From a virus (Duplodnaviria > Caudoviricetes), in the IMG/VR virus record IMGVR_UViG_3300010413_000048, positions 1 through 52,435 of that record: a stretch of 52,435 nt of DNA. One strand, given 5' to 3'. Under the pieces are notes generated by a model that saw only the letters and a list, made by a program, of their open reading frames with translations, was not told the origin of the DNA and ran no database searches. The position numbers and the translations under genes are program-made. Positions 1 to 52,435 of this stretch are shown one piece after another. Positions within the stretch are counted from its first letter, which is position 1. The number at the start of each line of letters is the position of its first letter.

Positions 1-144
1 GTTGAGGTGCCTGCTGCTTGCTGGTGAAGTAAGTGTATGCGAGCGACAAGAGCATCATGTTCATGAGGTTCGAAGTCCTTACGATGAATGTTTTCGGCTT
101 CTTCGATCATAAGCATTTCGAGTTCGGTAAGGTCACGATTGTAG
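1..144. repeat. Terminal direct repeat, copy 1 (circular assembly overlap)
   Basis: 1-144 is identical to 52292-52435 and lies inside the ParB-MTase gene. Confidence 0.95.
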
Positions 145-7782: not shown

Positions 7783-8041
7783 TCGTTACCTCCTTAAATT
7801 TATAAGTATTATGTCCCTTTGCTCCAGTAGCGAATAGGTAATTTCCATCAAGAATTCTTCCAAAGCATGTTGGGCAGATATCTATTGTTACCATCTGAAG
7901 ATATGATGAACATGGCCTTCCTTCAGTCTGATCAGTGGTAAATATCACTTGAATATTAGATTTCTTTTTCTCTTTATATTCTCCTGATTGATGAAGATAA
8001 TCTTCCTTACATACATCACACATTACTATTTCTTTTCTCAT
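7760..8041 (-). CDS. hypothetical zinc-binding protein
   Basis: CDVC...DICPTC. Confidence 0.7.
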   Translation of the reverse strand: MRKEIVMCDVCKEDYLHQSGEYKEKKKSNIQVIFTTDQTEGRPCSSYLQMVTIDICPTCFGRILDGNYLFATGAKGHNTYKFKEVTSDCQSQA

Positions 8042-8104: not shown

Positions 8105-8233
8105 TCAAGTTGAGCTACCATATTTAATTTTTTCTATCTGAAGAAGTTTAATAATTAAAGTTGCAACAACTTCTTCAAAATATCCTTTTGGACATGGTCT
8201 AGGTTTATTTATGTCTTCAAATGGATTACTCAT
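8105..8233 (-). CDS. 42-aa hypothetical protein between the ligase and its orphan C-terminus
   Basis: ATGA-coupled to the ligase stop; MSNPFEDINKPRPCPKGYFEEVVATLIIKLLQIEKIKYGSST. Confidence 0.45.
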   Translation of the reverse strand: MSNPFEDINKPRPCPKGYFEEVVATLIIKLLQIEKIKYGSST

Positions 8234-9087
8234 ATATGTACTACCAGATCAAAAGTTCCTTTTGGTATTCCCTTGTTTGTTAAGTTTTGATAATAAACAG
8301 TTGCTTTATGCCCAGCTAATTGATCACGAAGATTCCAAAGTCGTTCCTTTTCGTCGTCGTCAAGACCTGCACTGACAGAAAATTCATCGTCTTCTTGTGA
8401 AGATAGAATAATAGAACCAATACGACCCTTTGGAAATCCAGTCTGGGTGTGTTCTTCTTTCCATCCAATAACAGTATATTCATCATCCTTCTTAGGCTTA
8501 AACTTCATCATCCAACGAGATCGTTTGTTATTTTCATAAGGTGCAAAGATATTGCGGATTATTATTCCTTCATATCTCTGTTTAATCACCCAGTCATAAG
8601 TCCTCTTTACTTCATTAAGTTCAGAACAGATCCAATAAGGGGCTATAAATAGAGGTGGTTTGACTATCTCTTTATATTCATTAAGAACTTTCTGTCTTTC
8701 ATATTGGGACAATTTTTCATCCTTAATATCAAAGATATAGAATCCAAGTTCTTTGTAGCGAGGATGGATATTGACTGTGCGACTAGCTATTCCATGAATA
8801 AGTTCATGACCTCCTTCGAGATATAAGTTATGATCATACAGTTCTCCATCCCACTTGAAGTCTGTTCCAAGATTGTTAATAGCTTCTGAAATGTGAGGAA
8901 GTAGAAAGAATGGATTTTCTTCGCTTGAGAGTAGTAAAGAATTTCCATTAGGAAGTGGATCACGCCAGCAACGATCTCCATCATACTTGATATTAACTAT
9001 AAATGGAGGCTCCCAGGATAGAAGACGTTTATCTTCATAAGGATAAGCCTTCATTATGTTTTTCCAGCGTTGGAAATTGTTAGTCAT
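8230..9087 (-). CDS. ATP-dependent DNA ligase
   Basis: Motif I KYDGDR, III DGELY, IIIa YIFD, IV EGIIIR, V MKFK. Confidence 0.92.
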   Translation of the reverse strand: MTNNFQRWKNIMKAYPYEDKRLLSWEPPFIVNIKYDGDRCWRDPLPNGNSLLLSSEENPFFLLPHISEAINNLGTDFKWDGELYDHNLYLEGGHELIHGIASRTVNIHPRYKELGFYIFDIKDEKLSQYERQKVLNEYKEIVKPPLFIAPYWICSELNEVKRTYDWVIKQRYEGIIIRNIFAPYENNKRSRWMMKFKPKKDDEYTVIGWKEEHTQTGFPKGRIGSIILSSQEDDEFSVSAGLDDDEKERLWNLRDQLAGHKATVYYQNLTNKGIPKGTFDLVVHI

Positions 9088-9557
9088 TACTTACACTCCA
9101 TTAACATAGTATATATTGGTTGTGGTTGAGAAGGTTCAGTATATCCTTTGACTCTTTTAACTACCTTACACTGAGTAAATTCTCCTTCTTTTACACGAAA
9201 TTTAAACTTTAAGGAATAATAGTCAATTTTGGTAGGTACGAATACAAAGGTAGGATCTTTTTCATCTCCTTCTATTTTCATTCTCCATAATATATTATAT
9301 TTTATATGGAGTGGCCCAAGAATATTTTCAATAAATTCATCTATTGTTACATTAGATACATGAACTATTACTCCAGGGTCAAAATAACTATCATCTACTT
9401 CTATTTTGACTTCTGCTTTTTCATGTTCAACTAACCATTTTTTAAATCTAAATGAATCTATCATTTTTTGGGCTTCTGACTGTCTTTTACATCTTTCTAC
9501 ATTTTCTGATCTTATAGTTTCAATCCTTTCTTCGAAACTTTTAAGTTCAAGTTTCAT
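9087..9557 (-). CDS. hypothetical protein
   Basis: AAGGAG RBS; TAATG coupling to the ligase. Confidence 0.7.
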   Translation of the reverse strand: MKLELKSFEERIETIRSENVERCKRQSEAQKMIDSFRFKKWLVEHEKAEVKIEVDDSYFDPGVIVHVSNVTIDEFIENILGPLHIKYNILWRMKIEGDEKDPTFVFVPTKIDYYSLKFKFRVKEGEFTQCKVVKRVKGYTEPSQPQPIYTMLMECK

Positions 9558-9578
9558 TTGCTTTTTCTCCTTATTAAA

Positions 9579-9603
9579 AGATAAATAAATTTTTTATATA
9601 TCT
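9579..9603. repeat. 25-bp palindrome, copy 4
   Basis: AGATAAATAAATTTTTTATATATCT; abuts the 3' end of the putative ncRNA. Confidence 0.9.
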
Positions 9604-9605
9604 AA

Positions 9606-9910
9606 TGTCTCCCAAGTAGGAAGCCTGGAAAGTTTTGGATGATAAGATAGAAAAAACATAACTTGTTTCAGGACATTCCCAGTTTCCTAGGCTCTGGCCT
9701 TACTTCCTTACTCCATAATTTCTTTAAAGGTATAATACTTACTTCCATAAGTCTTTACTCCTTTAACCTTTAAATAATGAGAAGTAGTTGGATTTGAACC
9801 AACAACCTCCAGCTCCCAAAGCTGGTGCTCTATCAATTGAGCTATTGATATAGTTCTATCGCTCACTATAGCGTCCTATCTTTGCCAATTTTTATCTCTA
9901 CTTGTAGACA
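9606..9910 (-). ncRNA. putative structured ncRNA downstream of the DIP1984-like gene
   Basis: Ends pair (UGUCU-A-CAAGUAG / CUACUUG-GG-AGACA); nested helix AAGAUAGGA / UUCUAUCUU; contains a tRNA-like domain and a periodic repeat tract. Confidence 0.6.
9780..9857 (-). tRNA. degenerate tRNA-Pro(TGG)-like element
   Basis: D arm GCTC-AATTGATA-GAGC, anticodon arm CCAGC-TTTGGGA-GCTGG, variable loop AGGTT, T arm GTTGG-TTCAAAT-CCAAC. The acceptor stem forms only with a 6-nt insertion, and there is no CCA. Confidence 0.75.
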
Positions 9911-9928
9911 TTATACAGTTTATATAGT

Positions 9929-10438
9929 TTACTCAATTAAATCTGTTATAGCGTTTACTATTTCCAGCTTTGAATCTATAGTAATAGGCTCTGACTGGTA
10001 CATATCAATCTTTTTATCTCTTGTTTCAGGTTCATAGAATCTAACTACTTTCATTTCCATAGGATCACCTGAAGGGGCTCTTACTATTCCTTCTTGGATA
10101 CCTCTATCATGAAGCTGTTTCCACATCTTCAATTCTAGTCCAGCAAGATCTCTTCGTCTATGAATCCATTCAGCTATAGTTTTTCTCACATTGTTTCCAT
10201 TAAGTTCTACTTCTACATAGGTTTCTAGATTAGTTCTTTGAATAGCGACACGTAGACGTAGTATTTCTTTAAGTATATCTGAATGAGACTGAATCCAGCC
10301 TGATACTTTCTTGGTCTGTTCTGGATATTTATCAGTTTCAAGTGATGACCTTGCACAGTTTTGATGTACTAGAGCACACAAGTCATCTGCCTTTCTTTGT
10401 AGGTCTTTTATTTTCTTTAATCCTTCAATTATTTTCAT
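9929..10438 (-). CDS. DIP1984-like (DUF6847) helical protein
   Basis: Family pattern MK(I/L).E.L...DLQRK...L...I.RTN..T...TIAE.I.RR......ID.KL...N..TDL.E. Confidence 0.7.
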   Translation of the reverse strand: MKIIEGLKKIKDLQRKADDLCALVHQNCARSSLETDKYPEQTKKVSGWIQSHSDILKEILRLRVAIQRTNLETYVEVELNGNNVRKTIAEWIHRRRDLAGLELKMWKQLHDRGIQEGIVRAPSGDPMEMKVVRFYEPETRDKKIDMYQSEPITIDSKLEIVNAITDLIE

Positions 10439-10474
10439 TTTAAGTTCCTCAACACCAATTATTTTCTCTAAGTT

Positions 10475-10506
10475 AAAAAGACCTGCAGGGCCAATCCCTG
10501 CAGGCC
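10475..10506 (-). terminator. Rho-independent terminator
   Basis: CCTGCAGGG-attgg-CCCTGCAGG stem-loop followed by TCTTTTT on the minus strand. Confidence 0.8.
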
Positions 10507-10533
10507 ATAATCAAGGAGGTAAGACAATGAGAA

Positions 10534-10917
10534 TTAGGCTGCTTTTGCTGCTTCGGCCCGGAGTTCCTGAACGTAAGCCTTTTTCCCTTCCGGTGAGAGT
10601 GTTGCAAAGTATGCCAGGGCCGCATCTCTGGTTGAGACAGCGGCTTTACTGACAGCGACACCCATCTTGCTAGGGCCAAGACGTGTTTGCATTGCTTCAG
10701 CTGATTCGCCCTTTTCAAGCGCCGATCTGACATTTCCCTGAAGTTTTACCGTAAAGTTAGCCATTGCGTTGGTAAGGACTGCTTCACCACCATACATCTG
10801 AATGGCCTCTTCAATAGTTTCGGGAGCCTGAATGGTTAAGGTTCCGATCTTGTCTTCTGCTCTTCCTTTTGCTTCGTTTTTGGGTAACTTTGCTGTGATT
10901 GTTAGTGCTTTGGACAT
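10534..10917 (-). CDS. hypothetical Ala/Lys-rich protein with its own promoter and terminator
   Basis: AAGGA RBS; promoter at 10983-11012 and terminator at 10475-10506. Confidence 0.75.
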   Translation of the reverse strand: MSKALTITAKLPKNEAKGRAEDKIGTLTIQAPETIEEAIQMYGGEAVLTNAMANFTVKLQGNVRSALEKGESAEAMQTRLGPSKMGVAVSKAAVSTRDAALAYFATLSPEGKKAYVQELRAEAAKAA

Positions 10918-10982
10918 CTTCTTTTCCTTTCATTTTAGAGGTTATTGATTTAAGTGACTCTGAAATTATCGATTATGGATTC

Positions 10983-11012
10983 ATAATAACATATCTATAA
11001 TACGGTTGTCAA
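10983..11012 (-). promoter_or_regulatory. sigma70-type promoter
   Basis: TTGACA-N18-TATTAT with extended -10 TG. Confidence 0.7.
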
Positions 11013-40544: not shown

Positions 40545-43500
40545 TCCTGATTGGACTGAAGGACTTTTAGGTGAAGACGTTCCAAGTGAGTCGATAGATC
40601 TAGCTGATGATAGTTGGGCTGGTGATCTGTTACCAAAAGAAGAACCTAAGCCAGTTGAAGTACCTAAACCAAAGCCATTGACTGTACCAAGAAGCTATCC
40701 CAATACTCCACTGTTTCAAGATACTCTTTATGGCCAGGCACTTAATAAAGTAATAAGACCTAATCAAGGACCTGAACAGAAGCTTATTAATGTAGAAAAA
40801 CTCAAGCCTGAGATTGATAGTGTTGTAAGTGGTCTAGCTGACTTCCTTGAAGATACTCCTACCCATAGTCGATTTGCTGCACTGCTTCCTGCACCGTTGA
40901 GAAAAACAGCAAGAGGCATAGGTGACTTCTTCAGTGCCATTCCAGGATTTGTTCTTGGAGTCTTAGCAGTCCCTGATCGAGCTAAGGTTCTTTTAAATAA
41001 GAAAGATTCTTCAGTGGAAGATCTCTATAATGCAATGGAAGGGGATATAGCAGGGATTAATAAGTCTGTTAGAGAGCATGTAGTAGATCAAACTCTAGGA
41101 ACTCTTGTTGGTGAAGCTACTCCAGGATCAGAAATGATTGGAAGAGCTATCATGGTTCCACTGGAAGTTCTAACAAGAACAGCCAATAGCATTTCTGAAT
41201 GGAAGAGGTTTGAAGATAGTCCTAATATAAGAGGAGTTATCAAGTTTGCAGGCTTTGGTGCTGGTGTACTAGCGATGGGGAAGATCTATCAGAAAGGTAG
41301 AAGATCAGAGGCTATCAATGATATTTCAGATGTAGTAGCAGGTGCTAAGGATCTTGAAACAAAGTATAAGATAGCTGAAGAGATTCCTGATCAGGCTATC
41401 AGGGCAGCGCAGGAGAAGATCTTAGATGCACAGAAAGTTCGGTTAGAGCTTCAAGCAAAAGCAATGATGGATAAGCTTGATTATGGAATTTTGATTAAGG
41501 AAGATCTGAGTAATACAGGAGGAAGGATTAAGCAGATTAAACAGGCTAATAAGTATATTGCTGATGAGGTGATTAATAAGACGTTTGAGAAGCTGCCTAA
41601 AGGAGAAAAGATAAAAGTTCAAAGGTCTTCAGAGGAAGCAGGTGATATGACTCAGTATGAGATCATTGAAGGTCCTGATAAAGGTAGTTCTGTTTCAAGG
41701 GGATCACTTAAAGCTGAGCCGAGTAAGTATGATATTAATGAAGAGTTGATGCAAGTAGTTAAGGAAAAGGGAGAAGTAGATGAATATGATCTATTGTTAA
41801 AGGACATTGAAAGACTGAAGAAGCAACCTGAACCAGATACAGACCTCGACATGGAAATCCAAGAACGAGAACCCTTTCAACTTGACACTGAGCATTCTCC
41901 ATTTAGAGAAAGTGCTGAGGTAACAGAAGGAAGAATAGATCTTTATAACCGAGTCAAGTGGCAGGAAGATCCTGAGCTGGCTACAGGCAAGATGATTAAC
42001 GATGTTAATAGATGGCTTGATACAGGGGAAGGGGATATAAAAGTAGCAAGGGATTCACTGAGTGAGTTTGCAGGAAGAGCTGAGGAGCTTAGGGATTATT
42101 TCAGGGAGTCAAGTGATTATCCTAGTAACTTTGACAACTGGAGGGAGATGGTAAGTGAAGCAGCGAGTTGGGCTAGGAAGGCGAAGAGGCCTAGTGAGGG
42201 AACCAAACTCTACGACATCGGTGGTGCAGTTGGTGAAGGAGCAAAGGAAATAGTCCGTGGAGCTAAGCGTGCTCGTGAATATATTATCAAAGCGAGAGGA
42301 ATGAAATCCTTCAAACCAATGCAGGCAGCGAAGATGCTAAAGGAAGAGCTTGTAAGATCCTTCGTTGACCGCTCTGGTAATATAAGAAAAAAACTTCTTG
42401 ATGGACTAGGTGATATTGGATATAGTATTATTCAGAAGATGTATCTATCGAAGGGTGCAAGTTCACGCTCCGCAGCGATGCTCAAGCAGATGCAGAAGGA
42501 AGTTTATCGTGGGCTTAATAAGAATGAAAAGAGAATCCTTGATACCTTAATCTTCCACAATCGTATGGCTGATATAGGAAAGTATAAGACTCCTAAACAA
42601 TTTAAGTATTTTAAAGATCATCCATTGGAAGATAGTATTGCTTACATCGAGCTGCTTGGGGATCTAGAGAAACTCAGTCCAGAGCAAGTAGCTGATATGC
42701 ATAATAGGGCAGCAGCTTACTTTGAATGGATGAAGAAGCCGTTGAAGGATATGCTGGATTCAGGAATTATTTCTGAGCAGGAGTTCGCTGATTTATCAAG
42801 TCATAATTATCGAAAGTTGAAACTGGTAGATATTTTTGATAAAAGATATGAAGGAAAGCTTGGGAAGAAAAGATTGACAGTCTATGACTCTGGAATTCAA
42901 GCACTTGCAAGAGGTAAAGCTACAGATGTATTTGAGCCTTCAAGTGAAGTAATGGCACTGGAGGTTTTTAATAGATCTTATGGAAGAATATTTAAGAATG
43001 AAGCAAATAAGAATTTGCTTAATCTTGCAAGAAGAGATAAAGAGAATCCTTTTGTAAGAGTTAAGAGAACTGAAGAATCAAAAGAAGGATATTATAAAGT
43101 TAGATATAAAGATAAAAGTGGAAAATCAAGAGAAATATTTATAGATAATAAAATAGAAGAATTTAAAGAATTTGAAAATAGTAATATGAATAGTGCACAG
43201 TCAGAAAGACTTAATGATTTTATATCTAAAGATACTTCACATAAATATACTAAATTACCTAGATCAGAGAATGATATTCCTAGTGGATGGGATAGGATCT
43301 TTGTTTATGATAAGGGTGAGAGAAAGGCTATTTATTTAAGTCCTGAGCTGAGTAAAGAATGGATTATTAATAATCCTGAAATGAGTTACAAGATGAGCCA
43401 GTTGATTAGGTATGCTTTTGGTTCACAGGTATTGAGAACCTTTGCCACTGGAATCAACTGGGGATTTGCAGTAGCTAATTTACCAAGAGATGTTATGCAC

Positions 43501-45072
43501 ACTTGGTTCACTGCAAGGAGTTGGGAGAATGGACAGTGGAAGCCAGTTTATAGTCCACATGCACCAGTGTTTCCACTACAGATAACAAGAGACCTTGGAT
43601 CAGTATTCACAGATGCACTGTTAAGAAAGGGACGATATGAAGACTATATTAATCAAGGTGGTGGCATGGAGTTCATGGTGCATCAAGGAAGAATACTCCA
43701 AAGAGGTAGACATCTTGAAGGACCACTTGATAGGGTTGAAAACTTTCTAGGATACTTTGGTGAGACAAGTGAGATATTAACAAGGCTTGCAATTAGAGAA
43801 AGGGCATTGAGACAAGGTAAAAGTGCAGAGGAAGCAACTTTCATTGCTCGTGACTATATGGACTTTGGACAGGGGGGAAGTATTGCAAAGGCCCTTGACA
43901 ATGCAATGCCTTATCTCAATGCAAGTATTCAGGGAACTAGAGGATTGCTTAGATCATTCAGAGATAATCCTGTTGAGTCAAGTTATAAGCTATCACAGTT
44001 TGCTGCACTTGTTACTGGTATTTACTTAGCAATGGATTCAAGAGCCCCTGAGACTAAGAAGAATCTTCAAGGTAGTATTGATATGACTAATAATATAGTG
44101 ATACCCCTTGGAGATGAATTTGGCTTTGTGGATTCAGAAGGACAGCAAAGGTATCCTTATATTAAGATTCCTTTAGATCCAAGTCAGAGATTTTTTAAGA
44201 AGTTTTTTGAGGCTAGTACAGATAAGTGGCTTGGAAATGAAGTTGATATTGAAAATACTGTTAAGGCACTGGGTGAGTTAAGTCCTGCTAATGTAGGATC
44301 ACTACCACCAACTCTTAGTGGTGCTCTTGGTTATATGACTAATAGGGATTTCTGGAGAAATGAAGATATATGGAGAGGATCTGATCCATTTAGTTATCCT
44401 TATTCAAGGGAAGAATATACAAGGAAGACTCCCCAAGCCTTTGTTGATGTAGGACAGGTGACAGGACTTAGTCCTGAAAGATTAAGGTATGCAGTTGGTG
44501 AACTTGTTACTCAAGGAACAGTATGGTCTTATTTACTTGGAGCAGGGTATGATGAACTGTTAGGTGATATGCCTAAGAGGAATAAGGAAGAACATCTGGC
44601 GATGGTGCTTAGTCAGACTCCAGTATTTAAAAGGTTTATAGGTGTCACTAATCCATATAGTAAATATGGAGAGAAGATAGATAAGGCACAGGAAGAGAAA
44701 GTACTTGAAGAGTTTGTACAGAATAGAAATTTTGATATTAAGGTAGATGCCTTTCTTTATGGAGAGGGGATTGAGAGAGGGGATTTAGATAAAGAGGCAA
44801 GAAGTTACAAGGATAAAGATACCTATGATCGTCTCATAGATCGACTGAGGTTTGAGGAGGCGATTAAAACTCTCCCTGAAAAATCTTTCTGGAGAAGAAT
44901 GAAAGGGCTAAGACTTGAGGCAAAAGCAAAAGTGTTTGCTGATAGATTAAGATCAGCAGATGAAAAAGAAAGGAGCCAACTCTGGAGAGAGTATGGGATT
45001 GTGGCTAAGGCCAAGGGGGTAATCTCTCCAGAGTTTCGAGCTGAGGTTAGGAAGCAGTTGGAGAAGGAATAG
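40534..45072 (+). CDS. large internal virion/ejection protein with LPD38-like C-terminal domain
   Basis: 1512 aa; F..N..RD, ARD.MDF...G...PYLNASIQG, IKIP, NRDF, SP..L.Y motifs. Confidence 0.7.
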   Translation: MVSNPDWTEGLLGEDVPSESIDLADDSWAGDLLPKEEPKPVEVPKPKPLTVPRSYPNTPLFQDTLYGQALNKVIRPNQGPEQKLINVEKLKPEIDSVVSGLADFLEDTPTHSRFAALLPAPLRKTARGIGDFFSAIPGFVLGVLAVPDRAKVLLNKKDSSVEDLYNAMEGDIAGINKSVREHVVDQTLGTLVGEATPGSEMIGRAIMVPLEVLTRTANSISEWKRFEDSPNIRGVIKFAGFGAGVLAMGKIYQKGRRSEAINDISDVVAGAKDLETKYKIAEEIPDQAIRAAQEKILDAQKVRLELQAKAMMDKLDYGILIKEDLSNTGGRIKQIKQANKYIADEVINKTFEKLPKGEKIKVQRSSEEAGDMTQYEIIEGPDKGSSVSRGSLKAEPSKYDINEELMQVVKEKGEVDEYDLLLKDIERLKKQPEPDTDLDMEIQEREPFQLDTEHSPFRESAEVTEGRIDLYNRVKWQEDPELATGKMINDVNRWLDTGEGDIKVARDSLSEFAGRAEELRDYFRESSDYPSNFDNWREMVSEAASWARKAKRPSEGTKLYDIGGAVGEGAKEIVRGAKRAREYIIKARGMKSFKPMQAAKMLKEELVRSFVDRSGNIRKKLLDGLGDIGYSIIQKMYLSKGASSRSAAMLKQMQKEVYRGLNKNEKRILDTLIFHNRMADIGKYKTPKQFKYFKDHPLEDSIAYIELLGDLEKLSPEQVADMHNRAAAYFEWMKKPLKDMLDSGIISEQEFADLSSHNYRKLKLVDIFDKRYEGKLGKKRLTVYDSGIQALARGKATDVFEPSSEVMALEVFNRSYGRIFKNEANKNLLNLARRDKENPFVRVKRTEESKEGYYKVRYKDKSGKSREIFIDNKIEEFKEFENSNMNSAQSERLNDFISKDTSHKYTKLPRSENDIPSGWDRIFVYDKGERKAIYLSPELSKEWIINNPEMSYKMSQLIRYAFGSQVLRTFATGINWGFAVANLPRDVMHTWFTARSWENGQWKPVYSPHAPVFPLQITRDLGSVFTDALLRKGRYEDYINQGGGMEFMVHQGRILQRGRHLEGPLDRVENFLGYFGETSEILTRLAIRERALRQGKSAEEATFIARDYMDFGQGGSIAKALDNAMPYLNASIQGTRGLLRSFRDNPVESSYKLSQFAALVTGIYLAMDSRAPETKKNLQGSIDMTNNIVIPLGDEFGFVDSEGQQRYPYIKIPLDPSQRFFKKFFEASTDKWLGNEVDIENTVKALGELSPANVGSLPPTLSGALGYMTNRDFWRNEDIWRGSDPFSYPYSREEYTRKTPQAFVDVGQVTGLSPERLRYAVGELVTQGTVWSYLLGAGYDELLGDMPKRNKEEHLAMVLSQTPVFKRFIGVTNPYSKYGEKIDKAQEEKVLEEFVQNRNFDIKVDAFLYGEGIERGDLDKEARSYKDKDTYDRLIDRLRFEEAIKTLPEKSFWRRMKGLRLEAKAKVFADRLRSADEKERSQLWREYGIVAKAKGVISPEFRAEVRKQLEKE

Positions 45073-51355: not shown

Positions 51356-52435
51356 TACTTTAATCCATTAAGTTTAACAAGAAAACTATCTCTATAACTC
51401 TTACTAAGCTCAAACCCCAGTGCTTCCATTCCAAGTTGATGTGCCGCAAGAAGTCCATTGCCTGAGCCAAGAAAAGGTATAAGTACACGTGAGCCAGGGA
51501 AGGCAAAGGTATCGTAGAGTTCTTTCATCAGCTCTATCGGCCGCTCAGTTGGATGAGTCTTTTGTTGGGAAGGGACTGGAGGAGTATTGAAAATATTTGA
51601 ACGGCCTTGTTTGTTCAGTGCAGGTTGTCCCTTCCAAGCATAGAAGAACATTTCGTAAGAATTGGCGAGGCGAGTTTCAGGCTGATTGCATTGACCTGAG
51701 GGTTTAGTCCAGATGCCACACATACGAGTTGTTTGGAAGCCTACTTCAGTAAGCATTTGATACATACTATTAAACCAAGGCTCTGGTGCAAACCATACTA
51801 TCATCCAAGAATGATTAGACATTACACGATAGCATTCTGTAAAAGTCTTTATCATAAACATACTATATTTATTTGAAGGTACCTCATTATAATCCTGCTT
51901 CTGATACTGACTCTCTCCTTCAGCTTTCTTCATCTGACCCTTTGTAAGATCTATTCCATAAGGTGGATCGATCTCCACCAGATTAACAACACCGTTAGGA
52001 ATGTCAGCAACACCTTCGAAAAAATCACGATTGATATAGCAGTTAGCAAGCCTAGCAATATTACCTTCTTTATTCTGTTCCACTTGTTTAGCGATCTCAT
52101 GACGGATTCCCTCTTCCTTTATTTTCTTGACGACCTTAGTTGCATCCTTGGCAGTCTTACATCCTTCAAATAATTCAGGCATTAGTTCTCGCAACTCATG
52201 ACGTTCAAGAGCTGCAGCCACTGCAGGCTGAGTCATGCCAAGGATAGCTCCGGTGTCTGATTGCTTGTGCCCAGAGCCGCCAGGGCCAGGAGTTGAGGTG
52301 CCTGCTGCTTGCTGGTGAAGTAAGTGTATGCGAGCGACAAGAGCATCATGTTCATGAGGTTCGAAGTCCTTACGATGAATGTTTTCGGCTTCTTCGATCA
52401 TAAGCATTTCGAGTTCGGTAAGGTCACGATTGTAG
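51355..52435 (-). CDS. ParB-DNA methyltransferase fusion: HTH and N6A/N4C MTase (beta class) part; true start at 380
   Basis: HTH QSDTGAILGMTQPAVAAAL; motif IV DPPY; HPTERP; motif I PFLGSG; GFEL. Confidence 0.88.
   Translation of the reverse strand, partial: YNRDLTELEMLMIEEAENIHRKDFEPHEHDALVARIHLLHQQAAGTSTPGPGGSGHKQSDTGAILGMTQPAVAAALERHELRELMPELFEGCKTAKDATKVVKKIKEEGIRHEIAKQVEQNKEGNIARLANCYINRDFFEGVADIPNGVVNLVEIDPPYGIDLTKGQMKKAEGESQYQKQDYNEVPSNKYSMFMIKTFTECYRVMSNHSWMIVWFAPEPWFNSMYQMLTEVGFQTTRMCGIWTKPSGQCNQPETRLANSYEMFFYAWKGQPALNKQGRSNIFNTPPVPSQQKTHPTERPIELMKELYDTFAFPGSRVLIPFLGSGNGLLAAHQLGMEALGFELSKSYRDSFLVKLNGLK
52292..52435. repeat. Terminal direct repeat, copy 2
   Basis: Identical to 1-144. 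Confidence 0.95.

What the first reader, a model, noticed from the sequence alone, without database searches (positions are those of the whole stretch)
9606..10438. Candidate protein-RNA system: DIP1984-like gene followed by a ~305-nt structured ncRNA
Seen: the roughly 350 nt after the stop of the 169-aa gene contain no ORF of 60 aa or more. On the coding strand the ends are complementary (9910-9898 UGUCU-A-CAAGUAG with 9619-9606 CUACUUG-GG-AGACA), and a second helix is nested inside (9882-9874 AAGAUAGGA with 9652-9644 UUCUAUCUU). Together these enclose a small hairpin (CGCU-auagug-AGCG), a tRNA-like domain and a periodic purine-rich tract. The unit lies between a terminator (10475-10506) and palindrome copy 4. 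Knowledge: the protein fits the pattern of the functionally uncharacterised DIP1984-like/DUF6847 helical family. Inference: this is a self-contained ribonucleoprotein module in which an oligomer of the protein binds its cis-encoded RNA. It is the best candidate for an undescribed system in this window.
Basis: partly seen in the sequence, partly recalled or inferred. Interest (0 to 1): 0.9.

Follow-up and report, generated by a model that had tools for sequence, protein, structure and literature searches.

The report
Phage RNA with dedicated partner protein
Behind a small helical-protein gene this marine-sediment phage encodes a real, knotted, roughly 305-base non-coding RNA that carries a tRNA look-alike and a regular row of AAG motifs; the gene-plus-RNA pair recurs in many uncultured phages, matches no catalogued RNA family, and its job is still unknown.

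Summary
The window is a complete 52,435-bp phage genome. On the minus strand, a DUF6847/DIP1984-like gene (10438-9929) is followed by a 305-nt RNA (9910-9606). On 46 distinct relatives, 96.3% of pair cells are standard pairs against 77.5% in shuffles (0 of 500 reach it). The inner helix is one strand of a pseudoknot with a third helix. The RNA has a variable site and then 8-13 AAG(G) motifs spaced 7-8 nt apart. In the window the variable site holds a tRNA-Pro(UGG)-like domain with no acceptor stem. In relatives it holds whole tRNAs, circularly permuted YrlA-like mimics, or simple hairpins. In a protein-first sample, 74 of 80 viral loci carry the RNA core next to the gene (67 downstream, 7 upstream). 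Rfam 15 matches only the tRNA part. The protein folds like PDB 3kdq (function unknown) and is modelled as a homodimer. Protein-RNA binding and expression are not shown. This scan noted the same pairing earlier on other DNA. Their RAGATH-27 link was not reproduced here, and their T5 link only weakly. My reading is a new RNA class, probably a ribonucleoprotein, of unknown function.

The parts
9929..10438 (-). Gene for a 169-aa DUF6847/DIP1984-like helical protein, the partner gene of the RNA
   Evidence: ORF. Pfam PF20935 28.3 bits, cut-off 27. NCBIfam NF038048 39.2 bits, below its cut-off of 70. AlphaFold2 mean pLDDT 97.8. The only clear PDB fold match is 3kdq: Foldseek E 2.2e-4 and VIA-align Z 12.2 over 148 residues, rmsd 7.8. 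There are 351 representative clusters at E <= 0.001.
10480..10506 (-). Terminator-like hairpin of the preceding gene, followed by a T run. It marks the upstream border of the unit.
   Evidence: 11 pairs, 8 of them G-C, then a T run. One such site was found in 9000-11000, against 1.2 expected in shuffles, so it is a consensus match only.
9606..9910 (-). The whole structured RNA, 305 nt, from the outer 5' strand to the outer 3' strand of the closing helix
   Evidence: nhmmer profiles find a single copy in the window.
9898..9910 (-). P1 5' strand: outer 9910-9906, bulged A at 9905, inner 9904-9898
   Evidence: Pairs with 9619-9606. On 46 RNAs all 5 outer pairs change on both sides in 13-25 sequences each. 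In a fixed-register count the outer helix is 98.3% paired, against 56% with shuffled partners.
9889..9897 (-). Conserved, mostly unpaired joining strand (motif GAGAUAAAAA including the last P1 base)
   Evidence: Invariant or nearly invariant columns in A2 and A5. G9896 and A9895 are paired by RNAalifold with U and C of the GGCUUCC motif in 46 of 46 sequences, with no variation.
9874..9888 (-). P2 5' strand: P2b 9888-9885, two unpaired bases, then P2a 9882-9874
   Evidence: P2b pairs with 9638-9635 and P2a with 9652-9644. For P2b, 4 of 4 pairs change on both sides and 96.7% of cells are paired. P2a helices of 5-11 bp with many compensatory variants are listed.
9860..9873 (-). P3 small hairpin (4-bp stem, 6-nt loop)
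   Evidence: Read. The two stem pairs that RNAalifold kept covary: 17 sequences change on both sides at one pair.
9786..9845 (-). tRNA-like insert with D arm, anticodon arm (loop 9820-9814, anticodon-position bases UGG at 9818-9816) and T arm, but no acceptor stem
   Evidence: Rfam RF00005 51.8 bits, E 2.6e-8, model positions 7-64 of 71. ARAGORN finds 0 genes in the window. By my reading, the seven bases on either side give only 3 of 7 possible pairs.
9698..9770 (-). Periodic array of 11 AAG(G)-type motifs spaced 7-8 nt apart (some 4 or 16)
   Evidence: window spacings are 7,8,7,4,4,16,8,7,4,4. In 30 RNAs, 87 gaps are 7 nt and 72 are 8 nt. The mean chain is 9.7 motifs, against 3.0 in shuffles. 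The array is unpaired in both RNAalifold consensus structures.
9679..9697 (-). P4 hairpin (4-bp stem 9697-9694 with 9682-9679)
   Evidence: Read. A hairpin stands at this position in the relatives by my reading. It was not counted formally.
9624..9672 (-). P5 hairpin (5' strand 9672-9669 and 9664-9660; 3' strand 9634-9630 and 9627-9624). Its loop holds the 3' strands of P2a (9652-9644) and P2b (9638-9635), which makes the core a pseudoknot.
   Evidence: 11 pairs, 96.0% paired, 5 of them with changes on both sides. The crossing topology is shown.
9606..9625 (-). Invariant GGCUUCC motif (9625-9619) and P1 3' strand (inner 9619-9613, GG bulge, outer 9610-9606)
   Evidence: The motif is invariant in A2. 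It is also invariant in A5, but those sequences were fetched partly with this motif. Pairing is counted.
9579..9603 (.). One copy of a 25-nt A+T-rich palindrome scattered through the genome; the downstream border of the unit
   Evidence: families D1-D4, with 14 or more copies, mostly just upstream of genes. Its function was not tested.

Best explanation
This is a two-part phage module. One part is a gene for a dimeric DIP1984-like helical protein. The other is a dedicated structured RNA of about 305 nt.

Shown:
- The RNA has a compact pseudoknotted core. P1 closes the two ends. P2a and P2b pair the 5' region with the loop of hairpin P5.
- It has a variable site that serves as a display or insertion point for a tRNA or tRNA mimic. 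In this window that is an acceptor-less tRNA-Pro(UGG)-like domain.
- It has an unpaired array of about 10 AAG(G) motifs spaced 7-8 nt apart.
- Gene and RNA are co-inherited.

Inferred:
- The two are transcribed together after the upstream terminator.
- P1 defines, and perhaps serves as the processing stem of, a stable RNA.
- Copies of the protein (a dimer covering two motifs, about 15 nt) coat the periodic array. The result would be a ribonucleoprotein that presents the tRNA-like arm to tRNA-recognising machinery of the infected cell.

My odds:
- A real conserved structured RNA: 0.97.
- Functionally coupled to the protein: 0.85.
- Direct binding of the protein to the array: about 0.45.
- Any specific cellular role: low.

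The confidence of 0.55 given for this explanation is for the module taken as a protein-RNA particle.
For: RNA structure:
- On 46 distinct RNAs, 31 pairs in 4 helices are 96.3% paired, against 77.5% in 500 shuffles (0 of 500 reach it).
- 289 cells change on both sides, against 71.6 in shuffles.
- With the 3' partner slid by 1-3 columns, only 31-51% of cells pair.
- RNAalifold finds compensatory changes in 17 of 27 predicted pairs.
- P2a pseudoknot helices of 5-11 bp stand in all 30 RNAs examined. The mean best helix is 8.2 bp for cognate strands and 6.8 bp for non-cognate strands.
- The window RNA folds with z = -3.39.

Not coding: ORFs of 20 aa or more differ in place and length among 47 RNAs, and 6 RNAs have none.

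Coupling to the protein:
- tblastn places the gene directly upstream, on the same strand, in 10 of 11 pattern-first viral RNA groups. In the eleventh (L030) the RNA precedes the gene.
- In the protein-first sample of 80 loci (not deduplicated), iterated nhmmer finds the 3' core in 74, of which 67 are downstream and 7 upstream of the gene.
- Four of the other 6 loci have a 6-9-unit AAG array beside the gene.

Array:
- The spacing pattern 7,7,7,8,16,8,7,8 recurs across members.
- The array is unpaired in the consensus structures.

Protein oligomer:
- Homodimer model score 0.79, best of 3 controls 0.00.
- That mark was reached by 20 of 30 proteins solved as pairs of one chain and by 1 of 23 solved as single chains.
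- The runs agree in at least 98% of contacts, and the partner's pLDDT is at least 92.

tRNA theme:
- ARAGORN finds a tRNA at the same site of the RNA in 35 of 80 loci and in 5 of 30 pattern-first RNAs.
- 5 of 6 permuted inserts match Rfam YrlA at 34-44 bits, E 5e-7 to 2e-4, which is below the gathering score of 69.
Against: - There is no expression or binding data of any kind.
- The protein is near neutral: pI 7.8, family median 7.7.
- Its only fold relative, 3kdq, has no known function.
- No RNA-binding family was hit in Pfam, NCBIfam, PHROGs or PADLOC.
- The dimer pass may reflect the solved four-chain 3kdq entry rather than independent evidence.
- Two of 80 loci (L096, L136) show neither the RNA core nor an array within the fetched flanks.
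- The RNAs used for the covariation count were collected partly with sequence patterns from the 3' core and, for P1 inner, with a pairing filter. So invariance of those motifs and the P1-inner figure are partly circular. P1 outer, P2b and P5 were not used for selection.
- A host factor rather than the phage protein could be what binds the array.
Confidence: 0.55

Rival explanations
1. RNA-only machine. Like ROOL and GOLLD, the RNA works by itself, for instance as a self-assembling multimer or scaffold. The neighbouring protein would then act in the same pathway without coating the array.
For: The RNA is phage-encoded, pseudoknotted and lies beside or around tRNAs, as described for GOLLD and ROOL. 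[quoted passage not shown] Unpaired motifs such as GGCUUCC and GAGAUAAAAA are invariant and could make RNA-RNA contacts.
Against: Gene-RNA adjacency is much tighter than anything described for ROOL or GOLLD: 74 of 80 loci, kept even when the order is inverted. The RNA is two to three times smaller. Neither family matches at E <= 10.
Confidence: 0.15
2. tRNA cassette. The RNA is chiefly an elaborate precursor whose paired leader and trailer control the processing, stability or timing of an embedded phage tRNA. The window's copy would be a decayed remnant.
For: Whole tRNAs lie at the same site in 35 of 80 loci. Four of the first nine loci have full-length Rfam tRNA hits of 50-58 bits inside the RNA. 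43 of 80 loci have tRNA genes nearby on the same strand.
Against: - More than half of the members have no tRNA that ARAGORN recognises.
- The window's insert has no acceptor stem.
- Permuted inserts with a capped acceptor stem cannot be released as tRNAs.
- Several embedded tRNAs have unusual anticodons (AAU, AUA, ACU, AUU, AGG, UCA) or irregular loops.
- The core and the array are conserved regardless of the insert.
Confidence: 0.12
3. Decoy or sponge for a host factor. The AAG(G) array would soak up a host RNA-binding activity. Candidates are the 3' end of 16S rRNA (AAGG is Shine-Dalgarno-like) or CsrA-, Hfq- or S1-type proteins. Alternatively, the tRNA-like arm would decoy a tRNA-cutting defence nuclease.
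For: About 10 evenly spaced unpaired motifs are typical of sponge RNAs (from my own knowledge of CsrB/RsmZ and of TRAP targets). In the window many motifs read as GGA or AAGGAG-like. According to the passage read, GOLLD bound ribosomes in pull-downs.
Against: GGA is not conserved across members: the base after AAGG is any of the four, with G at +3 in only 65% of motifs. Anticodon-loop sequences differ widely between members, so no single nuclease target is mimicked. This reading leaves the strict link to the phage protein unexplained.
Confidence: 0.13
4. No dedicated RNA. The region would be a structured 3' UTR or terminator, a small-protein gene (the 26-aa ORF 9748-9668 or the 52-aa ORF 9866-9708), or a decayed tRNA gene with chance complementarity.
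For: A Shine-Dalgarno-like sequence precedes the 26-aa ORF. The tRNA part alone reaches the Rfam threshold.
Against: There is covariation in four helices including a pseudoknot. ORFs are not conserved. The non-tRNA core is conserved in relatives whose proteins are only 42-64% identical.
Confidence: 0.02

Closest known systems
GOLLD (RF01998) and ROOL (RF03087) large phage/prophage RNAs
   Same: They are phage-encoded, multi-helix, pseudoknotted RNAs of unknown function, found near tRNA islands. GOLLD sometimes carries a tRNA covalently in a linker (passages read).
   Different: This RNA is 245-385 nt, against roughly 580 and 800 nt. Neither model matches at E <= 10. It has a periodic AAG array and an almost obligatory neighbouring protein gene, whereas no protein partner is described for ROOL.
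Bacterial and phage Y RNAs of the YrlA type (RF02553) with Ro60/Rsr
   Same: Both have a closing stem formed by the two RNA ends, a tRNA-like module and a dedicated protein encoded next to the RNA. The permuted inserts of 5 of 6 tested relatives hit the YrlA model at E 5e-7 to 2e-4. YrlA mimics the D arm, T arm and acceptor stem (passages of PMC4201824).
   Different: The hits are below the gathering score (34-44 against 69 bits) and cover only the tRNA-like part. The window's insert is in normal order and does not hit YrlA. No TROVE/Ro60 gene is found in the window or in 5 other records. The partner protein has a different fold.
RAGATH-27 (RF03100), named by earlier notes of this scan as covering the first 86 nt of related RNAs
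   Same: It is an orphan candidate RNA motif of unknown function. This is a lead taken only.
   Different: It does not match here. There is no hit at E <= 10 in 9560-9960. The best hit in the whole window is 9.5 bits, at an unrelated place. There is none in T5 and none in 17 related loci (at E <= 0.1; at gathering score). No paper in the library holds the name.
PDB 3kdq, an uncharacterised conserved protein of Corynebacterium diphtheriae (by my recollection the DIP1984 protein)
   Same: Same fold over nearly the whole chain: Z 12.2, 148 residues aligned, 22% identity. Foldseek E 2.2e-4.
   Different: It is bacterial, not viral. The sequence-profile match is weak (E 0.26). No function or RNA partner is on record for it.
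TRAP of Bacillus with its (G/U)AG repeats, and CsrA sponges such as CsrB/RsmZ (recalled, not tested)
   Same: Many short motifs at regular spacing in unpaired RNA, each bound by one subunit of an oligomeric protein.
   Different: The motif (AAG, often AAGG), the spacing (7-8 nt) and the protein fold all differ. Binding is not shown here.

Membership tests
tRNA (RF00005), for the insert at 9845-9786 | D arm, anticodon arm and T arm scoring above the Rfam gathering score | tested here: met
   51.8 bits against 29, model positions 7-64 of 71.
tRNA (RF00005), for the insert at 9845-9786 | Seven-pair acceptor stem that allows processing and charging | tested here: not met
   The Rfam alignment stops at positions 7 and 64. 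ARAGORN finds no gene. The flanking heptamers give 3 of 7 pairs by my reading.
RAGATH-27 (RF03100) | Covariance-model score at or above the gathering score of 76.1 bits | tested here: not met
   No hit in 9560-9960 at E <= 10. The best hit in the window is 9.5 bits, at 7962-7987.
GOLLD (RF01998) / ROOL (RF03087) | Covariance-model match | tested here: not met
   Not among the matches at gathering score or at E <= 10 on 9560-9960.
YrlA / Y RNA with Ro60 | Match to the YrlA covariance model | tested here: not met
   The window gives no hit. Relatives with permuted inserts score 34-44 bits, below the 69-bit threshold.
YrlA / Y RNA with Ro60 | A Ro60 (TROVE domain) gene encoded nearby | tested here: not met
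   PF05731 gives no match in the complete window genome or in 5 other records, 2 of which are at least 90% complete. A host-encoded Ro60 cannot be excluded.
DUF6847 / DIP1984-like proteins | Pfam PF20935 at or above its gathering score | tested here: met
   28.3 bits against 27, covering residues 11-167 and profile positions 2-141 of 141.
DUF6847 / DIP1984-like proteins | NCBIfam NF038048 at or above its cut-off | tested here: not met
   39.2 bits against 70, although the match is full length. The protein is therefore a divergent viral branch.
DUF6847 / DIP1984-like proteins | Fold of the solved family member | tested here: met
   3kdq Z 12.2, rmsd 7.8, 148 residues aligned; Foldseek probability 1.00.
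Type III toxin-antitoxin (ToxIN/AbiF-like RNA repeats) | Tandem RNA repeats of tens of nucleotides next to an endoribonuclease toxin | tested here: not met
   The repeat unit here is 7-8 nt. PADLOC has no hit for the protein or its two neighbours. In most loci the RNA follows rather than precedes the gene.

The most novel reading that the evidence does not exclude
A previously undescribed class of phage ribonucleoprotein. Dimers of a DIP1984-fold protein would polymerise on a 7-8-nt periodic AAG array, and a pseudoknotted core would hold out an exchangeable tRNA or tRNA mimic (normal, acceptor-less or YrlA-like permuted). The particle would use this arm to engage host tRNA-handling machinery, for example to decoy tRNA-cutting defence nucleases or to recruit tRNA-processing or tRNA-modifying enzymes during infection. 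On this reading the whole DUF6847/DIP1984 family, whose solved structure has had no function since its release in 2009, would consist of RNA-array-binding proteins.
Probability: 0.2. Interest if true: 0.9.

Novelty: categorically new. Interest (0 to 1): 0.8.

Why it matters
If this is right, it adds a widespread RNA class to the very short list of large, ornate phage RNAs. Unlike GOLLD and ROOL, it comes with an identifiable protein partner, which makes its biochemistry directly testable. It would give a first functional handle on the DUF6847/DIP1984 family: 351 representative clusters relate to this protein alone, and one crystal structure has no assigned function. It would also show that phages repeatedly graft tRNAs and tRNA mimics onto a common RNA chassis, which bears on how phages deal with the host's tRNA-centred defences and translation apparatus.

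The module is small, about 0.8 kb. It could be expressed and purified as it stands.

Tried and rejected
**Searches that led nowhere**
- Close relatives in named phages: blastn of 9560-10520 and tblastn of the protein against 50,697 GenBank phage records found nothing.
- Prophage hosts: one scan of 185,579 species genomes gave 21 stretches. Only L053 (a 72.7-kb contig of an FCB-group MAG) is a member. Eleven look like 5S rRNA by my reading, which I did not test with Rfam, and 9 are other sequence. The host therefore remains unknown.
- Expression: the look-up of sequencing runs listed no RNA holder. The single DNA holder is a marine sediment metagenome that may be the source of the window.
- Literature: searches for DUF6847/DIP1984 found 1 unrelated paper, and RAGATH-27 found 0 papers. 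A search on phage T5 ncRNA found nothing on this locus among the 12 papers listed. Those of PMC5737381 list all 224 motifs and could hold a related motif that I could not see.

**Readings tested and dropped**
- CsrA-sponge reading: rejected because GGA is not conserved.
- Own promoter: I saw a TG-extended -10-like box at 9917-9910. The scan did not list it, it overlaps the outer helix, and it is not conserved in relatives. I dropped it.
- Coding reading: rejected.
- Ro60 partner: rejected for phage-encoded Ro60.

**Phage T5, a lead**
- PF20935 gives no match and RF03100 gives no match.
- My 114-sequence protein profile gives only E 0.002, 14 bits, on T5.085.
- The roughly 360-nt ORF-free gap after T5.085 folds with a long closing helix and has an AA(A)G tract at 7-9 nt spacing.
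- My nhmmer profiles do not match it, nor L009. This is a resemblance in architecture only.

**Other**
- Fold search beyond 3kdq gave only generic helical hairpins at Z 7.7 or below. This excludes no family.
Full report
**What the window is.** The window is a complete virus record of 52,435 bp with direct terminal repeats. The repeat is 144 bp. The only public run that holds the stretch is a marine sediment metagenome. The finding lies on the minus strand.

**Check of the observation.**
- The 169-aa ORF runs from 10438 to 9929. It reaches the Pfam DUF6847 threshold at 28.3 bits against 27.
- No ORF of 60 aa or more overlaps the 320 nt behind it.
- Read, the outer helix is 9910-9906 with 9610-9606. 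The inner closing helix is 9904-9898 with 9619-9613. The second helix is 9882-9874 with 9652-9644. The small hairpin is 9873-9860.
- Rfam finds one family in the whole window. It is tRNA at 9845-9786, 51.8 bits, covering model positions 7-64 only. ARAGORN finds no tRNA gene. The domain has D, anticodon (UGG at the anticodon position) and T arms but no acceptor stem.
- The terminator-like hairpin upstream of the gene is at 10506-10480. A genome-wide 25-nt palindrome stands right after the RNA at 9603-9579.
- The 309-nt stretch folds better than all 100 shuffles, with z = -3.39.

**Relatives.**
- The protein has relatives in viral contigs at 31-55% identity. The sequence behind their genes is visibly conserved at both ends.
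- A DNA pattern from the 3' core fetched 27 viral stretches, of which 16 are members. Counting identical copies once, these are 11 RNAs, one of them cut at a contig end.
- The same approach fetched 34 metagenome stretches, 27 with both ends present. In species genomes it found 1 member among 21 stretches.
- After removal of identical copies there were 31 RNAs. With the protein-first loci there were 47.

**Structure.**
- On a MAFFT alignment of 46 of these RNAs, RNAalifold predicts 27 pairs, 17 with compensatory changes.
- I counted 31 pairs in four helices, including four pairs of the pseudoknot. 96.3% of cells are standard pairs, against 77.5% in shuffles (0 of 500 reach it).
- 289 cells change on both sides, against 71.6 in shuffles. 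The covariation score is 0.588 against 0.197. With the partner slid by 1-3 columns only 31-51% pair.
- In a separate fixed-register count, the outer closing helix was 98.3% paired against 56% with shuffled partners. It played no part in collecting the sequences.
I therefore examined it with a script. A helix of 5-11 bp stands at the same place in all 30 RNAs tested. Clear compensatory variants occur at internal positions. It is followed by a second 4-bp helix, P2b. P2b covaries at 4 of 4 pairs.
- Both 3' strands of P2 lie in the loop of hairpin P5, so the core is a pseudoknot and not two nested helices.
- Caveats. The RNAs were fetched partly by motifs of the 3' core. The 5' end was chosen by requiring at least 6 of 7 pairs in inner P1. 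Conservation of those motifs and the inner-P1 figure are therefore partly circular.

**The periodic array.**
- Between the variable site and P4, every member has 6-13 AAG(G)-type motifs. The window has 11, at 9770-9698.
- Gaps of 7 nt (87 cases) and 8 nt (72 cases) dominate. Gaps of 14-16 nt look like one skipped unit. The order 7,7,7,8,16,8,7,8 recurs in many members.
- The mean chain is 9.7 motifs, against 3.0 in shuffled sequence.
- The consensus around each motif is G or U, any base, A, A, G, then G in 65% of motifs.
- The tract is left unpaired by RNAalifold in both alignments.

**The variable site.**
- In the window the site holds the acceptor-less tRNA-like domain.
- Among 30 pattern-first RNAs, ARAGORN whole tRNAs at this site, and 9 RNAs have a T-arm-like hairpin.
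- In the protein-first sample, 35 of 80 loci have an ARAGORN tRNA within 260 nt upstream of the 3' core on the same strand. The anticodons are very diverse and several are unusual.
- In six members the order of arms is permuted: T arm, then a capped acceptor stem, then D arm. Five of the six match the Rfam YrlA model at 34-44 bits, E 5e-7 to 2e-4, below the 69-bit threshold.
- A capped acceptor stem cannot yield a chargeable tRNA. I therefore read the site as a place where a tRNA-shaped module is displayed. In some members it may instead be released.

**Link to the protein.**
- tblastn finds the gene directly upstream on the same strand in 10 of the 11 pattern-first viral RNA groups. L014 has two tRNAs in between.
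- In the eleventh group, L030, the RNA precedes the gene.
- To avoid circularity I fetched 80 viral loci by the protein alone. They are not deduplicated and some overlap the earlier ones.
- nhmmer profiles of the RNA ends found the 3' core in 63 loci. After three iterations the count was 74, of which 67 are downstream and 7 upstream of the gene.
- Four of the remaining six loci have a 6-9-unit AAG array beside the gene. Two (L096, L136) show nothing.
- Adjacency that survives inversion of the order argues for a two-part module rather than a mere 3' UTR.

**The protein.**
- AlphaFold2 with 114 sequences gives mean pLDDT 97.8, with four long helices and two small hairpins.
- The only clear PDB match is 3kdq, a functionally unknown protein of Corynebacterium diphtheriae. 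Foldseek gives E 2.2e-4, and VIA-align gives Z 12.2 over 148 residues with rmsd 7.8. Everything else is a generic helical hairpin at Z 7.7 or below.
- The sequence-profile match to 3kdq is weak, E 0.26.
- The ESM Atlas puts the protein among mostly viral clusters. Its structural neighbours include DIP1984/DUF6847 clusters and a 'Siphovirus Gp157' cluster at TM 0.65.
- PADLOC has no hit. PHROGs gives only a weak 'tail fiber' family at E 1e-4, which I do not trust.
- The pI is 7.8.
- The most conserved residues are polar or aromatic: Y38, T69, N70, T73, W91, R94, N162 and T165. From the helix order I infer that most of them lie at one end of the bundle. I did not measure this on the model.
- A two-copy model passes its controls. 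The score is 0.79 and the best control is 0.00. The mark was reached by 20 of 30 proteins solved as pairs of one chain and by 1 of 23 solved as single chains. The runs agree in at least 98% of contacts, and the partner's pLDDT is at least 92.
- The solved 3kdq entry has four chains, so this pass may be memory of that entry.

**Mechanism.**
- Shown: a conserved pseudoknotted RNA, a periodic unpaired array, an exchangeable tRNA-like insert, and co-inheritance with a DIP1984-fold protein.
- Inferred:
  - Gene and RNA are transcribed together after the terminator.
  - P1 delimits a stable RNA.
  - Protein dimers sit on successive pairs of motifs (7 + 8 = 15 nt).
  - The particle presents the tRNA-shaped arm to host machinery.
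- I put direct binding at about 0.45. I cannot choose among cellular roles.

**Comparison with known systems.**
- GOLLD and ROOL share the phage setting, the nearness to tRNAs and, for GOLLD, covalently embedded tRNAs (passages read). They are much larger, have no known protein partner and do not match.
- YrlA-type Y RNAs share the closing stem, the tRNA mimic and a neighbouring partner gene (passages of PMC4201824). No Ro60 gene is present, and the window does not match the model.
- RAGATH-27, named in earlier notes of this scan, does not match the window, T5 or 17 related loci.

**Earlier notes of this scan.** One search lists 22 findings on other genomes that describe the same kind of pair. 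One search shows a note on this window's periodic tract. I took from them the RAGATH-27 and T5 leads and tested both. RAGATH-27 was not reproduced. For T5 I found only a weak protein-profile match and a look-alike architecture.

**Verdict.** The ribonucleoprotein reading is partly supported. The RNA belongs to no catalogued family, and the papers I could search do not describe it. Interest is 0.8.

Noticed in passing
window 9579-9603 and at least 14 other places (e.g. 1805, 3263, 13066, 17287, 26766, 27123, 33967, 35336, 39460, 45796, 47548, 50952): A 25-nt A+T-rich palindrome (AGATATATAAA...TTTATATATCT type) is scattered through the genome, mostly just upstream of genes and their ribosome-binding sites. 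It could be a phage-specific promoter, operator or weak terminator.
   Followed up: partly
window 1-144 and 52292-52435: An exact 144-bp direct terminal repeat. This agrees with the record being a complete genome.
   Followed up: no
window 8230-9087 (minus strand): An ATP-dependent DNA ligase (Pfam DNA_ligase_A_M E 3e-13 plus an OB domain) lies two genes downstream of the RNA. The 156-aa gene between them (9557-9087) has no family in Pfam, PHROGs or PADLOC.
   Followed up: partly
L062, L130 (anticodon UCA); L019/L100 (AAU); L081 (AUA); L107, L133 (ACU); L119, L163 (AUU); L161 (AGG): Many tRNAs embedded in related RNAs have anticodons rarely seen in real decoders (A at position 34, or UCA, which would read the stop codon UGA) or loops that ARAGORN cannot type. 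They may be mimics, or suppressors.
   Followed up: no
L066, L089, L102, L125, L158, L168: Circularly permuted tRNA-like inserts (T arm, capped acceptor stem, D arm). Five of the six match the Rfam YrlA model below threshold, although no Ro60 gene was found in the records searched.
   Followed up: partly
L098 (= L030), L141, L144, L159, L165, L167, L172: In 7 of 74 loci the RNA lies upstream of the protein gene instead of downstream. The L030 contig end also carries what looks like sequencing-adaptor sequence.
   Followed up: partly
Phage T5 record, 43142-43504 (minus strand), after T5.085: An unannotated gap of about 360 nt with an 18-bp closing helix, a 5-bp/7-nt hairpin and an AA(A)G tract at 7-9 nt spacing. 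It lies behind a 212-aa protein that matches my DUF6847-like profile only weakly (E 0.002).
   Followed up: partly
L009 4130-4225: In a 223-kb phage contig, a second tRNA-shaped sequence with a 7-bp acceptor stem, an encoded CCA end and a long internal insertion follows tRNA-Pro(UGG). Neither ARAGORN nor Rfam calls it.
   Followed up: no
L037, L039, L040, L044, L045, L049, L050, L052, L054, L055, L056: The 3'-core search pattern also matches what look like 5S rRNA genes of Myxococcota, Nitrospirales and Hydrogenedentes. I take this as coincidence, but the shared motifs (AAGUUA...GGCUUCC...UGGGAG) were not examined further.
   Followed up: no
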